Source: a virus
Taxonomy: Duplodnaviria; Heunggongvirae; Uroviricota; Caudoviricetes
IMG/VR virus record: IMGVR_UViG_2537561693_000022
Length of the DNA stretch: 18,932 bases
Direction: 5' to 3' (one strand)
Shown here: in pieces, positions 6,001-9,000 of the stretch
Layout: each line of letters opens with the position of its first letter
Position numbering within the stretch: position 1 is the first letter of the stretch
Position numbers: made by a program

Positions 6001-9000
6001 TCAGGGAGCGTTTGCCGCTGAAGTCATTATCTTCAAAATCAGCGGTCTGGTTTGCTTCAATCGTGATTTTACGGACCGCCGCAGCCGCTTTTGTTGCCTG
6101 AATGGTGTCACCATTAGCATCAAAGCCCACAAGGTAGTCGGCCCAGTCTTCAATCCATTCTGCCAGTGATTTCTGGGAGTTACGCTCGCCATTAACAGAC
6201 AACAGAGCAGAGAACGGTGCTGTCTTTTTCAGTTTGAGAGTGGCGGGGTTATCTGCGTGACCTGGTTCATCAATAGTGCCCAGGTTAAGCACACTGACGG
6301 CTCGCATATTATCGGCATCGATAAAGCAGCGGGTGCCTTCATCTGCAAGATCTTTAGAATAACGGGTAAAGTCATCGATGCTGGCAGTGGAAAGCGCGCC
6401 ACGGAAACGGAAGCGATTTAAATTAAATTTTTCCAGATCATGAATGCGGAAATTCTCAGGTAATGCCACAGCATCGGCACCAATCTTACTGATAATTTCA
6501 TTAACACCCTGAGAAGAAATAAGGGCATGGATTTGATTAATTGCGGTTGCGTCTAAGTTCTGAGACATAATAAGTCCTCACTATATAAAGATATTCAGTG
6601 ATGAGATAAATAATCAGTTAATTAAGAACGATATTAATGACCTGCTGCGCGGAGTTTTCCGTCAGGTTCACCGGCAAGAGTCAGTAATTGTCCCTGGTCT
6701 TCCTGCAGAATAGTCAGGCGACCACCGCGATTGACATACATCGGCGTTTCGGTGGTGTCTTCTTCGGAAATTTTCCCGCGGTTAGTCGGGCGGACATATG
6801 AGAGTTTATGTTTGATTTTCACACGGCTCTCATCAAACGGTTCGATTTCCAGGTTGAGTGAGACCTTACCTTTGGTTTTCGTGTTCATCACACCGGAAGC
6901 GACTTCACTGAGAACTGCGCCGATTTTGGTTTCAAATACGCCGCCGTCCAGCTCCCCGATAAATGCCTGTACATCAGTACTGCGTTCGCTAGCCATTTTG
7001 CTGCTCCTCATCATATCGACCCTGCAAGGTCGGTTGGTTTCTCCACAAAACAGAGAAGAACACCTGCGGTGGCAGCCGCCCGGATGGATTGGGTTATGAG
7101 CCCGTCGTCCGGTGATGCTCTTCTCTGTTTTGTAAAAAGAGCGGTACCAGCCGGAAGCAAGTGTACAAACTGGTACCGCCAAAGCAGTGGCTGTTGTGGT
7201 GGGGTTGTCACTCAGGCGTATGGTCAACCTGACAATCCGGTGTCCTCAACGGGGAAAGAGTAACCCCGCCATACTTACCGCCGCGCCATTTCGCGGATTA
7301 CCACAACGCTGAGAGCACTTAGCCAGTTACGGCACCACACTTTGTCGCGGTTCCATAAATGCCCTCATCGTTGCACCCTGGTCTCTTCCCAGGCGTCAAA
7401 CCGAATCGCCACGCTGGTTAGGCGTCTTATCAGCATCATCATTGACTTGCACATTCCGGCTACCTGGTTTGTTTGCTCGAGCAAGGAGTGGATTGTCCCC
7501 TTTAACGTCACCAGACCGCTAACGACGCATGTGCCATACGCCGTGTTACAACCAAATTTTGTTTTAATCTTGCCTGTGTTATGTTTCTTTTAGATACATT
7601 ATGTATCTCATGGGTACATTGTCAAGCATAAAAAAACCTGCCGAAGCAGGTTCATAAATATTGATTAGGCCTTTATTGTGTATCTTCTTGGTTTTCCCGA
7701 GAAAATCACTGTACCAATTATAGAGCAATTACCGTTAATCTTAATGTAAGGCTCAGGCCAGTTTGGGTTTAATGCTTTGAGATAACGCTGTGTTCCATCT
7801 TCTATCAACCGCTTGAAGGTGGTTTCGCCTGAATCGTGCATCAATGCAATAACGTCGTCACCGTGGCAGGCAGGGACTTCAGGATCTACAAAAATCATGT
7901 CTCCCGGGCGGTACTCATCAATCATTGAATCACCAATCACCCGCAAGATATAAGTCATTTCGCCACAGGGTACAGGGCAGGGATAAGTTTCTGCTGTGCT
8001 CAAATCAACCTCAGAATAGCCAACTTCTTTCCATGCTCCGGCCTGTACCCATGATATGACAGGGACTAACGTTATTTGTTTGTTAGTAATTGAAACATCA
8101 GGTTTTTTTGTGATGTTTGTTGTCTGGTGTTCTTGATCAAGCCATCCGACAGGCAGGTCGAAACATTTTTCGATGTGCCGTGCCATGCTGTCACCGATAT
8201 TTTTAGTAGCACCATCTCCCATAAACCTGCTGGTCTGGGTTGGCTCGCGATCAATCATGGTGGCAAAGGAAGAATTCCCGCCAACACCATCTCTCAGTTT
8301 TCTGGCGTTAGACCGCCGGATGTCATGGACTGTTTTCATAAAGAAATTAAAACCTTTGTACCGATAAGGTACAAGTATCTTGAAGGTTCATCTCAATCAT
8401 GTAATATGTATACCGGAGGTACATATTGTATGAAAGCGTATTGGGACTCTTTAACCAAAGAACAGCAGGGTGAGTTGGCCGGAAAAGTTGGCTCAACACC
8501 AGGCTACTTACGGCTGGGTTTCAATGGTTATAAAAAAGCCAGTTTTGTGCTGGCTAAAAAACTTGAGCAATGCACGTCAGGTGCAATTACGAAATCTGAC
8601 TTAAGACCGGATATCTATCCGAAAGATTAACAGAACACCTTCAATTTTTAACCACAGAACGATGAGGCTAACCGTGGGTAAGCATCACTGGAAAGTAGAA
8701 AAACAGCCTGAGTGGTACGTGAAAGCTGTCAGAAAAACTATCGCGGCGTTGCCGGGGGGTTACGCTGAAGCTGCTGAGTGGCTGGATGTAACAGAGAACG
8801 CTTTATTCAACCGCCTTCGTGCAGATGGCGATCAGATTTTCCCGCTGGGATGGGCAATGATTTTACAGCGCGCGGCTGGCACTCACTACATTGCGGATGC
8901 TGTCGCACAGTCTGCTGGTGGGGTGTTTGTATCGCTTCCTGAAATTGAGGAAGTAGAGAACGCCGATATAAACCAGCGCCTGCTGGAAGTCATCGAACAG

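What the first reader, a model, noticed from the sequence alone, without database searches (positions are those of the whole stretch)
7000..7660. A ~650-bp structured, apparently non-coding early-left leader occupies the position where lambdoid phages encode N
No plausible ORF lies between the repressor terminator and the yfdP-like gene. Downstream of a strong candidate promoter (TTGACA-16-CATAAT) there is an intrinsic-terminator-like hairpin (7133-7179) and then a 15-bp perfect stem with a 59-nt loop (7045-7133). Expression of the leftward early operon (yfdPQRS, xis) must pass these structures without an N homolog, which suggests RNA-based antitermination (HK022 put-like), a riboregulator, or an sRNA.
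Basis: partly seen in the sequence, partly recalled or inferred. Interest (0 to 1): 0.55.

Follow-up and report, generated by a model that had tools for sequence, protein, structure and literature searches.

The report
Non-coding RNA array behind phage PL
The 600-base gap after this prophage's repressor gene is a string of conserved folded RNA modules, including a relative of the cell-division sRNA DicF and an apparently undescribed pseudoknotted RNA found in about a third of complete E. coli genomes, which makes it a concrete place to test how phages lacking the N protein express their early genes.

Summary
Window 7000-7660 (minus strand) has a repressor-controlled PL-like promoter, no conserved ORF, a hairpin-plus-U-tract terminator and a long hairpin, all at the stated coordinates.

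It is a mosaic of independently mobile RNA modules, not one leader:
- segC (7546->7370): a pseudoknotted RNA with strong covariation and no Rfam family. It occurs in 1,833 of 5,426 complete E. coli genomes, in P1-like and epsilon15-like phages, and often abuts tRNA-Arg or tRNA-Ile.
- Two copies of a long "X" linker hairpin (7374->7301 and 7133->7043).
- segB (7307->7193): a cloverleaf-like domain, 89% identical to the 123 nt upstream of dicF in K-12 Qin.
- A DicF-family hairpin-terminator (7183->7134).

Covariance-model and alignment tests find no relationship to the HK022 or HK639 put RNAs. SfV has the same immunity region, terminator and yfdP but lacks segC, so segC is not obligatory for the operon.

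Best reading: a PL-driven non-coding RNA operon. Its DicF-type terminator is read through in part, as documented for the Qin dicB operon. segC's function is unknown, and an antitermination role is not excluded.

The parts
7634..7653 (-). Intrinsic terminator of the repressor gene
   Evidence: 8-bp stem GAACCTGC/GCAGGTT followed by a T-run. Annotated as a terminator in phage Ayreon and SfV.
7598..7625 (-). PL-like sigma-70 promoter TTGACA-16-CATAAT, with an operator-like palindrome (7602-7618) in the spacer
   Evidence: 11 of 12 consensus matches. The operator consensus TGTACC-N5-GGTACA occurs here and twice between the repressor and cro genes. Sequence left of about 7563 is shared with phages of other immunity types; this part is immunity-specific.
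7370..7546 (-). segC core, a conserved pseudoknotted RNA. H1 7543-7536/7530-7523 with loop GGCAC. H2 7514-7511/7467-7464 closes a variable arm whose loop starts with the anti-SD-like CUCCUUG (7488-7482). Invariant 19-mer 7464-7446. H4 hairpin ACGC/GCGU with loop CUAACCA (within 7426-7409). Pseudoknot AACC/GGUU between the H4 loop and 7403-7395. H6 hairpin CCUGG-GAAGAGA-CCAGG (7394-7376).
   Evidence: Covariance model R1 scores 142 bits, E = 1e-39. On a MAFFT alignment of 32 diverged sequences, 95% of cells pair and 13 of 25 pairs change on both sides; 0 of 500 shuffles reach this, and slid controls pair at 27-51%. No Rfam family matches.
7301..7374 (-). X hairpin copy 1 (GCAACGAUGAGGGCAUU ... 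AGUGCUCUCAGCGUUGUGG), the linker between segC and the next module
   Evidence: Stem is 16 of 17 complementary. Across 20 distinct family variants, 13 of 17 pairs change on both sides (instances were pre-selected for complementarity). In other loci a tRNA-Arg, segB or an STnc100-like module follows directly.
7193..7307 (-). segB, a cloverleaf-like four-way junction. Closing stem GUUGUGGU/ACCACAAC (7307-7300/7200-7193). Hairpin CCGCG-AAAUGG-CGCGG (7296-7281). Variable hairpin (7267-7251). Hairpin with an invariant 19-nt loop (7238-7202) that pairs back to GUAUGG (7274-7269).
   Evidence: 89.4% identical over 123 nt to the sequence directly upstream of dicF in K-12 Qin, and 75% identical to the P1 region overlapping its annotated 'dicF-like region'. 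95.9% of cells pair and 14 of 32 pairs change on both sides; 0 of 500 shuffles.
7134..7183 (-). DicF-family hairpin plus U-tract: an intrinsic terminator and probable sRNA body (UUUGGCGGUACCAG-loop-CUGGUACCGCUCUUUUU)
   Evidence: 17 nt are 94% identical to dicF. The same UUUGGCGG...CCGCCCUUUUU frame, with covarying stems and different CU-rich loops, follows segB in 26 clusters and follows tRNA-Arg in phiV10-like phages. The Rfam DicF model does not match it.
7043..7133 (-). The stem is about 22 bp and the loop carries CAUAACCCAAUCC (7098-7086). It lies in the 5' UTR of yfdP.
   Evidence: Inverted repeat with 25-nt arms. It belongs to the same family as copy 1. It is conserved upstream of yfdP-like genes in SfV and ST64B.
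6996..7032 (-). Small hairpin (7032-7017), Shine-Dalgarno GAGGAG (7009-7004) and the ATG of yfdP (6996)
   Evidence: Sequence read directly. The product is 98% identical to K-12 YfdP.

Best explanation
The interval is a non-coding RNA operon placed between the repressor-controlled promoter PL and the first early-left gene. It is neither a passive leader nor a put-type antiterminator.

Read 5' to 3' on the minus strand, the transcript carries:
(i) segC, a compact RNA of about 180 nt with a pseudoknot and many invariant unpaired bases.
(ii) A long X hairpin.
(iii) segB, a cloverleaf-like domain. It occupies the slot that a real tRNA-Arg holds in epsilon15-like phages.
(iv) A DicF-family hairpin with a U-tract. 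It both terminates part of the transcripts and forms the body of a small RNA.
(v) A second X hairpin just ahead of the yfdP ribosome-binding site.

Shown here: the modules, their structures, their independent mobility and their homology to the dicF locus.

Inferred:
- Host RNases (RNase E, RNase III at the long hairpins, RNase P-type cleavage at the tRNA or tRNA-like domain) cut the array into stable RNAs.
- The DicF-type terminator is leaky, and read-through transcripts supply yfdPQRS-xis. This is what is documented for the homologous dicB operon of Qin.
- segC is an autonomous, processed RNA whose role is still unknown. Roughly 45% that it acts as a stable RNA in its own right, 20% that it acts in cis on transcription, and the remainder other roles.
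For: Mosaic structure: 6990-7201, 7193-7307 and 7301-7557 each match different sets of phages.

segC:
- More than 120 viral contigs carry it, falling into 45 clusters at about 90% identity.
- Covariation supports four helices plus a pseudoknot.
- It is always on the same strand as the adjacent tRNA. tRNA-Arg(UCU) lies directly downstream in 29 of 131 loci and tRNA-Ile2(CAU) directly upstream in 18.
- It never has a terminator of its own.
- The first ORF lies 190-1200 nt further on and differs between lineages: YfdP, a 119-aa protein, Xis-like proteins, Ban, assorted morons.

segB and the hairpin are homologous to the Qin dicF locus and show covariation. In phiV10-like phages the order is segC, X hairpin, tRNA-Arg, DicF-like terminator.

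In the Qin operon, DicF's 5' end is made by RNase E. Its 3' end is made either by termination or by RNase III cutting of read-through mRNA (PMC5069750).

In one locus a complete hammerhead core sits in the X-hairpin loop right after segC. That fits this position being a processing site.

No other promoter-like site lies between the terminator and yfdP.
Against: - No expression, processing or termination data for this phage were available, so every RNase step and the leakiness of the terminator are inferences.
- The Rfam DicF model does not recognise the window hairpin.
- The hairpin shows no special complementarity to the ftsZ start region: -24.8 kcal/mol, against -31.5 for shuffles and -38.5 for DicF. 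Its target is unknown.
- segC is usually promoter-proximal, with a sigma-70-like promoter 7-55 nt upstream in many clusters. It also precedes one or two terminators in both lambdoid and epsilon15-like contexts. Both features are what a cis-acting antiterminator would show.
- The statistics for the X hairpin rest on instances pre-selected for complementarity.
Confidence: 0.55

Rival explanations
1. segC is a cis-acting processive antiterminator or anti-Rho element. It would be a functional analogue of HK022 put, not a relative. The nascent RNA would bind the transcribing polymerase so that it passes the DicF-type terminator and later terminators. This would replace N in these N-less phages.
For: - The position is promoter-proximal in many lambdoid and epsilon15-like contexts.
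- It is always upstream of something, is never followed by its own terminator, and has intrinsic terminators downstream before the first ORF.
- The phages carrying it have no N-like first gene.
- A 2025 paper speculates that yfdPQR-type N-less lambdoids may use a put-like mechanism (PMC12315714).
- Many invariant unpaired bases suggest a specific binding partner.
Against: - There is no sequence or structure relationship to the put RNAs.
- The window has only one copy and nothing comparable downstream of PR.
- SfV and ST64B have the same terminator, X hairpin and yfdP without segC.
- In P1 it lies about 2.4 kb into an operon, directly before ban, with no terminator between.
- tRNA adjacency in 36% of loci fits a co-processed stable RNA better.
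Confidence: 0.18
2. segC is a ligand- or factor-sensing leader of the riboswitch type. It would tune expression of whatever lies downstream through alternative pairing of GUUGUGG with the upstream CAAC or the downstream CCACAAC.
For: - Aptamer-like anatomy: a pseudoknot, about 50 invariant positions in junctions, and variable peripheral arms.
- The GUUGUGG tail of X hairpin 1 can pair either with CAACG (X stem) or with ACCACAAC (segB closing stem).
- P1 repeats the H2 5' strand (UUUCUGGUGA) just downstream of the core.
Against: - There is no conserved expression platform. What follows is a tRNA, segB, an STnc100-like module or an ORF, depending on the phage.
- No terminator or RBS-sequestering hairpin is coupled to the core.
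- No match to any Rfam riboswitch.
Confidence: 0.08
3. The region hides a small protein gene, such as an N-like peptide, and the conservation is protein-coding.
For: Some phage records annotate hypothetical ORFs here, for example Ayreon and cdtI. The mechanical ORFs are 48-83 aa long.
Against: - No Pfam match.
- Conserved blocks are separated by stretches whose lengths vary out of codon phase.
- Substitutions are compensatory within helices rather than at third positions.
- The annotated ORFs differ in strand and frame between records.
Confidence: 0.02
4. The conserved blocks act at the DNA level, as recombination boundary sequences, protein-binding sites or a replication signal, rather than as RNA.
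For: - The modules are shuffled between unrelated phages.
- Recurrent junction sequences (GUUGUGG / CCACAAC, GUGGUGAAUGCG) flank them. Recombination linkers would look like this.
Against: - Compensatory changes keep G-U-tolerant helices on one strand.
- Orientation relative to promoters and tRNAs is fixed.
- Homology to a locus that makes a known RNA, dicF.
Confidence: 0.04

Closest known systems
dicF locus of the dicB operon, cryptic prophage Qin (E. coli K-12); Rfam RF00039
   Same: - The operon logic matches: repressor gene, repressor-controlled promoter, untranslated stretch, sRNA with an intrinsic terminator, then protein genes reached by read-through.
- Window 7307-7185 is 89% identical to the 123 nt upstream of dicF.
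- The hairpin's 5' strand, UUUGGCGGUAyCAGUUU, is shared.
   Different: - The 26 nt that carry DicF's 5' seed are missing.
- The loop is different and longer, and the Rfam DicF model gives no hit.
- There is no special complementarity to ftsZ.
- Qin has ydfABC in place of segC.
STnc100 (RF02076) and PasD prophage sRNAs
   Same: - In SfV and ST64B the slot held by segB in the window is held by a module matching STnc100 positions 31-147 (35 bits). It is closed by the same GUGGUG/CACCAC-type stem and followed by a hairpin terminator.
- The general design is a structured 5' domain plus a terminator hairpin.
   Different: - The window's segB is a different sequence family.
- The STnc100 match is below Rfam's gathering score and lies in other phages, not in the window.
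- STnc100 and PasD are reported mainly near the Q/lysis region (preprint 10.64898/2026.05.13.724894).
HK022 putL/putR and HK639 putL antiterminator RNAs
   Same: The position is the same: just downstream of PL in lambdoid phages that lack N. All are structured RNA with no protein partner encoded nearby.
   Different: - No homology: the covariance model scores 6 bits or less, and not at put. Local alignment gives p about 0.05 and 0.18.
- put is 70-126 nt with two stem-loops. segC is about 180 nt with four helices and a pseudoknot.
- segC also occurs next to tRNAs in P1-like and epsilon15-like phages.
Lambda nutL-N leader with its RNase III hairpin (from general knowledge, not tested here)
   Same: It is a long untranslated stretch between PL and the first early-left gene. 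It contains a long hairpin just upstream of that gene's ribosome-binding site.
   Different: - There is no N gene.
- The boxA-like CGCUCUU at 7144-7138 is part of the terminator stem and is not conserved in homologues.
- There is no boxB.
tRNA-linked stable RNAs: 3'ETS-leuZ-type tRNA-trailer sRNAs, the T4 tRNA-cluster stable RNAs, and GOLLD/ROOL (from general knowledge)
   Same: segC and the DicF-like hairpin are co-oriented with phage tRNAs and directly abut them. GOLLD and ROOL are likewise phage-borne, highly structured, often tRNA-adjacent and of unknown function.
   Different: - No sequence or model match to any of them in Rfam.
- segC is much smaller than GOLLD or ROOL.
- So far it is seen only in Enterobacteriaceae phages.

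Membership tests
HK022-type put antiterminator RNA | Sequence and secondary-structure similarity to putL/putR (two stem-loops of about 70 nt with conserved stem I and II sequences) | tested here: not met
   Model R1 finds nothing at put in HK022 or HK639, with default filters or with filters off. Smith-Waterman alignment against shuffles gives p about 0.05 and 0.18; only CAUGCGUCG..AGCG is shared.
HK022-type put antiterminator RNA | Location just downstream of an early promoter in an N-less lambdoid phage | tested here: met
   segC starts about 50 nt downstream of the predicted PL start site. Many homologues lie 7-55 nt from a promoter-like site.
HK022-type put antiterminator RNA | Promotes terminator read-through in cis, and this is blocked by rpoC zinc-binding-domain mutations | not testable with these tools
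   Needs in vitro transcription or genetics.
DicF sRNA (RF00039) | Match to the Rfam covariance model at or above the gathering score (48 bits) | tested here: not met
   No DicF hit at E <= 10 in 7110-7320. The positive control, Qin dicF, scores 76.7 bits.
DicF sRNA (RF00039) | Locus homology: the same upstream precursor region and the same terminator frame | tested here: met
   89.4% identity over the 123 nt upstream. 16 of 17 nt of the hairpin's 5' strand match. The family of segB plus variable hairpin includes Qin.
DicF sRNA (RF00039) | Antisense complementarity to the ftsZ translation start region | tested here: not met
   RNAduplex gives -24.8 kcal/mol, weaker than the shuffle mean of -31.5. 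DicF gives -38.5. The test is crude.
DicF sRNA (RF00039) | Hfq binding and processing by RNase E / RNase III | not testable with these tools
   Known for DicF (PMC5069750). No data exist for this locus.
STnc100 (RF02076) | Match to the Rfam model | tested here: not met
   No hit in the window. The equivalent slot in ST64B scores 35 bits and that in L039 scores 38 bits, both below the gathering score of 47.
Lambda N/nut antitermination | An N-like Arg-rich protein gene plus boxA-boxB nut sites after PL | tested here: not met
   There is no conserved ORF in the gap. The first gene is YfdP. The boxA-like heptamer is not conserved.
tRNA / tmRNA | Recognised by ARAGORN or the Rfam tRNA model | tested here: not met
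   ARAGORN finds 0 genes in the window. There is no Rfam tRNA hit. segB is only cloverleaf-like: a four-way junction in the slot a tRNA-Arg holds elsewhere.
Any Rfam 15 family (riboswitches, ribozymes, sRNAs) for segC | Covariance-model match | tested here: not met
   No hit at the gathering score. Only chance-level hits appear at E <= 10 in the window and in four diverged homologous loci.

The most novel reading that the evidence does not exclude
segC is a new class of phage RNA with a direct molecular activity. One possibility is a nascent-RNA element unrelated to put that reprogrammes host RNA polymerase or blocks Rho, so that untranslated tRNA/sRNA arrays and the early-left genes of N-less lambdoid, P1-like and epsilon15-like phages are transcribed to the end. 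The other is an autonomous folded RNA that binds a host factor. It would be carried by a third of E. coli genomes, including Shiga-toxin phages.
Probability: 0.2. Interest if true: 0.85.

Novelty: new variant of a known kind. Interest (0 to 1): 0.6.

Why it matters
How lambdoid phages without N express their early-left genes is an acknowledged open point; a 2025 paper only speculates about a put-like mechanism for yfdPQR-type phages. These phages include Stx2c- and Stx2a-converting phages of E. coli O157:H7, SfV and ST64B, and the genes concerned include excision functions.

This analysis turns the "empty" gap into defined parts that can be deleted one at a time. Those parts are a DicF-family sRNA cassette, two long hairpins and a strongly covarying pseudoknotted RNA.

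That RNA has no Rfam family. RefSeq annotates nothing under it in any of the records listed, yet it occurs in 34% of complete E. coli genomes, in P1-type plasmid prophages and in epsilon15-like phages. If it has a defined activity, it is a widespread missing annotation and a good target for structural and genetic work.

The swap between a true tRNA-Arg and the cloverleaf-like segB ahead of a variable hairpin-terminator also suggests how phages build and exchange sRNA cassettes.

Tried and rejected
- Rfam, at the gathering score on the whole window and at E <= 10 on the region and on diverged homologues: nothing for 7000-7660. The only hits elsewhere were C4 and isrK.
- ARAGORN: no tRNA or tmRNA in the window.
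- put homology: rejected by covariance-model searches, with filters off as well, on HK022 and HK639, and by alignment statistics.
- Hidden ORF or N-like peptide: rejected.
- boxA-like CGCUCUUUUUACAA at the terminator: rejected. It is the 3' strand of the stem and changes to GCCCUUU, GACCUUU or GUCCUUU in homologues.
- CACAACA (the GcvB R1 target consensus of AgvB) at 7198-7192: explained as the 3' strand of the segB closing stem. AgvB and AsxR lie at the PR' moron site, not here.
- Hammerhead-like GAUGAG in X hairpin 1: not a ribozyme. Other variants lack it, and only one foreign locus carries a true hammerhead core.
- DicF-like targeting of ftsZ: not supported.
- Long-range H1-segB helix in the minimum-free-energy fold: both strands have local partners supported by covariation. 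It is kept as unexplained, not as structure.
- Wasted scan: the single genome-contig scan used too loose a pattern. It returned mostly chance matches in GC-rich genomes. Of the first 100 loci tested with the model, only Kosakonia sacchari was real. The host range beyond Enterobacteriaceae is therefore not established.
- Literature: searches for a prior description of segC (P1 trnI-ban region, Uetakevirus sRNAs, the invariant 19-mer as a text string) found nothing. The library lacks most subscription journals, including Faubladier & Bouche 1994.
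Full report
**Where the window comes from and how it is laid out.** The window is 99.6% identical across this interval to Stx2c-converting phages of E. coli O157:H7. It is 98-99% identical to phages Ayreon, cdtI and 2H10. On the minus strand the order is as follows:
- A repressor gene with an S24 peptidase domain (7665-8339).
- Its terminator (7653-7634).
- A near-consensus promoter, TTGACA-16-CATAAT (7625-7598).
- About 600 nt without a credible gene.
- yfdP (ATG at 6996, 98% identical to K-12 YfdP).
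- The DUF2303 gene yfdQ.

The promoter spacer carries a palindrome, TGTATCTCATGGGTACA. Its consensus, TGTACC-N5-GGTACA, recurs twice between the repressor and cro genes. So this is the repressor-controlled leftward promoter.

**Check of the observation.** One is a perfect 10-bp stem with a 19-nt loop followed by CUCUUUUU (7179-7134). The other is a long hairpin whose arms are 25 nt, with the outer 15 bp perfect (7133-7045). The transcript folds better than all shuffles tried, z = -4.6. The mechanical ORFs in the gap have no Pfam match. Some records annotate hypothetical ORFs here, but these differ in strand and frame from record to record.

**The region is a mosaic.** BLAST against phage genomes splits the interval into pieces, each with its own distribution:
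- 7563-7670 goes with the immunity type.
- 6990-7201 is shared with SfV and others.
- 7193-7307 is shared with many lambdoid prophages and, more distantly, with P1.
- 7301-7557 is shared with epsilon15-like podoviruses (phiV10, SPN1S, Tyrion, PAT1), with P1, P7 and D6, and with lambdoid phages of other immunities such as mEp390.

In none of those records is anything convincing annotated under the match.

**segC (7546-7370).**
- *Sampling.* An exact search for its invariant 19-mer in IMG/VR hit the 120-locus limit. The 131 instances fall into 45 clusters at about 90% identity. The 19-mer's invariance in that set is by construction, but it is also invariant among the 11 BLAST-derived homologues.
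- *Structure.* I tested a structure read from the sequences on a MAFFT alignment of 32 diverged members. It comprises hairpin H1 with loop GGCAC, helix H2 closing a variable arm, hairpin H4 with loop yUCACCA, a pseudoknot between that loop and GGUG, and hairpin H6 with loop GAAGAGA. 95% of cells pair. 13 of 25 pairs show changes on both sides. No shuffle out of 500 reaches this. Sliding the partners by 1-3 columns drops pairing to 27-51%. In the window type, the pseudoknot's CACC/GGUG has become AACC/GGUU.
- *Not coding.* The two variable stretches change length without regard to codon phase, so the conservation is not protein-coding on either strand.
- *Known families.* No Rfam family matches the window copy or four diverged copies. 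No paper in the searchable library prints the 19-mer.
- *Copy number and spread.* A covariance model built from the alignment finds one copy in the window (142 bits), one in P1 (134 bits) and one in Kosakonia sacchari. BLAST finds the element in 1,833 of 5,426 complete E. coli genomes, at 2,468 places, 554 of them on plasmids. RefSeq annotates nothing under it in nearly all of the 30 records listed.

**Context of segC.**
- The element is always co-oriented with neighbouring tRNAs. A tRNA-Arg(UCU) starts directly after it in 29 of 131 loci, all epsilon15-like. A CAU-anticodon tRNA, annotated trnI in P1, ends 13 nt before it in 18 loci, all P1-like.
- In lambdoid and epsilon15-like phages a sigma-70-like promoter lies 7-55 nt upstream in many clusters, often right after the terminator of the preceding gene.
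- It has no terminator of its own.
- The first ORF with a ribosome-binding site lies 190-1200 nt further on and differs between lineages: YfdP, a 119-aa protein, an Xis-like protein, Ban, varied morons. None is N-like.

**The long hairpins.** In most loci the segC core is followed by a hairpin of the form (G)CAAC..GAGAGCA [variable insert] UGCUCUC..GUUGUGG. The window's "15-bp perfect stem" belongs to the same family. The stem frame is the same, and the loop motif CAUAACCCAAUCC also occurs in inserts of the first type elsewhere. Across 20 distinct variants, 13 of 17 stem pairs change on both sides. The caveat is that these instances were selected for complementarity. These hairpins sit between modules and, in SfV and ST64B too, just upstream of yfdP-like genes. 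In one metagenomic locus, the loop of the hairpin that follows segC contains a complete minimal type-I hammerhead core (28.7 bits against a gathering score of 34; E = 1.5e-5 on 151 nt).

**segB and the terminator hairpin.**
- Window 7307-7185 is 89.4% identical to the 123 nt that end 9 nt before dicF in the Qin prophage of K-12. The next 17 nt are 94% identical to the 5' strand of the DicF terminator hairpin. P1 carries a 75%-identical copy just after its P1ban promoter, overlapping the feature annotated "dicF-like region".
- A pattern search collected 27 genuine clusters of this module.
- On a 21-sequence alignment that includes Qin and P1, the tested structure pairs in 95.9% of cells and 14 of 32 pairs change on both sides. 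That structure is a four-way junction with an 8-bp closing stem, two conserved hairpins, one variable hairpin, and a loop-to-junction pairing (GUAUGG/CCAUAC, which is GCAUGG/CCAUGC in P1).
- In every cluster the module is followed by a hairpin-terminator in the frame UUUGGCGG...CCGCCCUUUUU. The stems covary and the mostly CU-rich loops differ. DicF is one member of this set.
- In phiV10-like phages the same kind of hairpin-terminator follows the tRNA-Arg by 45 nt. So the true tRNA and the cloverleaf-like segB occupy the same slot.
- In SfV and ST64B that slot holds a module matching positions 31-147 of Rfam STnc100, below the gathering score. A 2026 preprint relates STnc100 to the PasD sRNAs.
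- The Rfam DicF model itself does not recognise the window hairpin, although it scores 76.7 bits on Qin. The window RNA also shows no special complementarity to the ftsZ start region. It is a paralogue with an unknown target, not DicF.

**The put hypothesis.** HK639 carries an annotated putL-like RNA, and I located HK022 putL from the sequence downstream of its PL. The segC model gives no hit there, with default filters or with filters off. Local alignment scores are reached by 5% (HK022) and 18% (HK639) of shuffles. The window has only one segC and nothing similar after PR.

SfV has the same immunity region, the same DicF-type terminator, the same second long hairpin and yfdP, but no segC. 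It has an ORF and other sequence there instead. ST64B is organised likewise. Both carry a different covarying hairpin module right after PL, which the window lacks. segC is therefore not a put relative and is not generally needed to reach yfdP. A cis role in this particular phage is not excluded, because the position and the downstream terminators are what such an element would have.

**How it most likely works.**
- *Shown:* a repressor-controlled promoter drives an untranslated transcript built from independently mobile, structurally conserved RNA modules. The last module is homologous to the dicF locus.
- *Established for the homologue:* in the Qin dicB operon, DicF's 5' end is made by RNase E. 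Its 3' end is made by intrinsic termination or, on read-through mRNA, by RNase III. The downstream genes are expressed from the read-through fraction (PMC5069750).
- *Inferred here:* the 7183-7134 hairpin terminates only part of the transcripts. The long hairpins and the tRNA-like domain direct processing into stable RNAs. yfdPQRS-xis are made from read-through RNA, since no other promoter-like site precedes yfdP.
- *segC:* I rank an autonomous processed RNA first, because of its tRNA adjacency, its presence in three unrelated operon types and its dispensability in close relatives. I rank cis-acting antitermination or Rho protection second and a sensing leader third.

**Novelty and limits.** The DicF-like part is a new member of a known kind. 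The architecture as a whole is a variant of the dicB-operon theme. As far as Rfam 15 and the searchable literature show, segC is an undescribed RNA family. I could not read Faubladier & Bouche 1994, which first reported dicF-like prophage sequences. No expression data were available.

Noticed in passing
window 9582-9658 (+) and 9683-9770 (+): Rfam gathering-level hits to isrK (58.9 bits) and C4 antisense RNA (80.7 bits). They lie side by side inside the span of the Ash-family ORF 9222-10058, in the rightward operon. This looks like a P1/P7/P4-type C4 immunity module in a lambdoid prophage.
   Followed up: no
L064 384-430 (+) (IMGVR_UViG_3300011242_000058): A complete minimal type-I hammerhead core (GCGCGC-CUGAAGAG-UCC..GGA-CGAAAC-GC..GC-GUC|GCGCGC) sits in the loop of the long hairpin directly after segC. 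RF00163 scores 28.7 bits against a gathering score of 34. It is the only one among 131 loci.
   Followed up: partly
window 7515-7504 (-); L134 3385-3396; L004 about 2960-2975: Nucleotides 3-14 of K-12 DicF (UCUGGUGACGUU) are identical to the H2 5' strand of the window's segC. P1 repeats UUUCUGGUGAUGAC just after its segC, ahead of ban. This may be a recombination trace linking DicF's seed to segC.
   Followed up: partly
window 7553-7534 and 7224-7204 (-): GGUUGU..GGCGUAUGG in the 5' part of segC is complementary (6 + 9 nt) to CCAUACGCC..ACAACC in segB. This helix dominates the minimum-free-energy fold, yet both sides have local partners supported by covariation. It may be an alternative conformation or a coincidence.
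   Followed up: partly
L003 about 3430-3490 (SfV), L352 about 9880-9945 (ST64B), L094 upstream of segC: Another PL-proximal module, CAGGCAGGACGCCCACGAAGUAGCCGCC-hairpin-GGAUGAUUCG, has a covarying hairpin (CCUGG/CCAGG, CCGGU/ACCGG, CCC/GGG). It is present in SfV, ST64B and one segC-bearing contig. Only its first 10 nt or so remain in the window (7575-7566). It is a candidate leader element in the phages that lack segC.
   Followed up: partly
L352 9465-9583 (-) (ST64B); L039 1183-1390 (-): Sub-threshold matches to Rfam STnc100 (35 and 38 bits against a gathering score of 47) in the early-left leaders of ST64B and a related contig. STnc100-like modules therefore also occur behind PL, not only near the Q/lysis region.
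   Followed up: partly
window 7488-7482 (-) and homologous H2 loops: The apical loop of segC's variable H2 arm nearly always begins with YUCCUUG, the anti-Shine-Dalgarno sequence of 16S rRNA. The loops of the DicF-like hairpins are also CU-rich. This may reflect targeting of ribosome-binding sites.
   Followed up: no
window 5080-5286 and 5332-5643 (-): In Ayreon and SfV a single 537-bp yfdR-like gene lies between the yfdQ- and yfdS-like genes. The window shows two shorter ORFs in that span, which may reflect a frameshift or pseudogene.
   Followed up: no
L100 1077-1203 (-): The Rfam tRNA model matches over 127 nt (43.9 bits), directly after an X-type hairpin and downstream of segC. This may be a tRNA with an insertion.
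   Followed up: no
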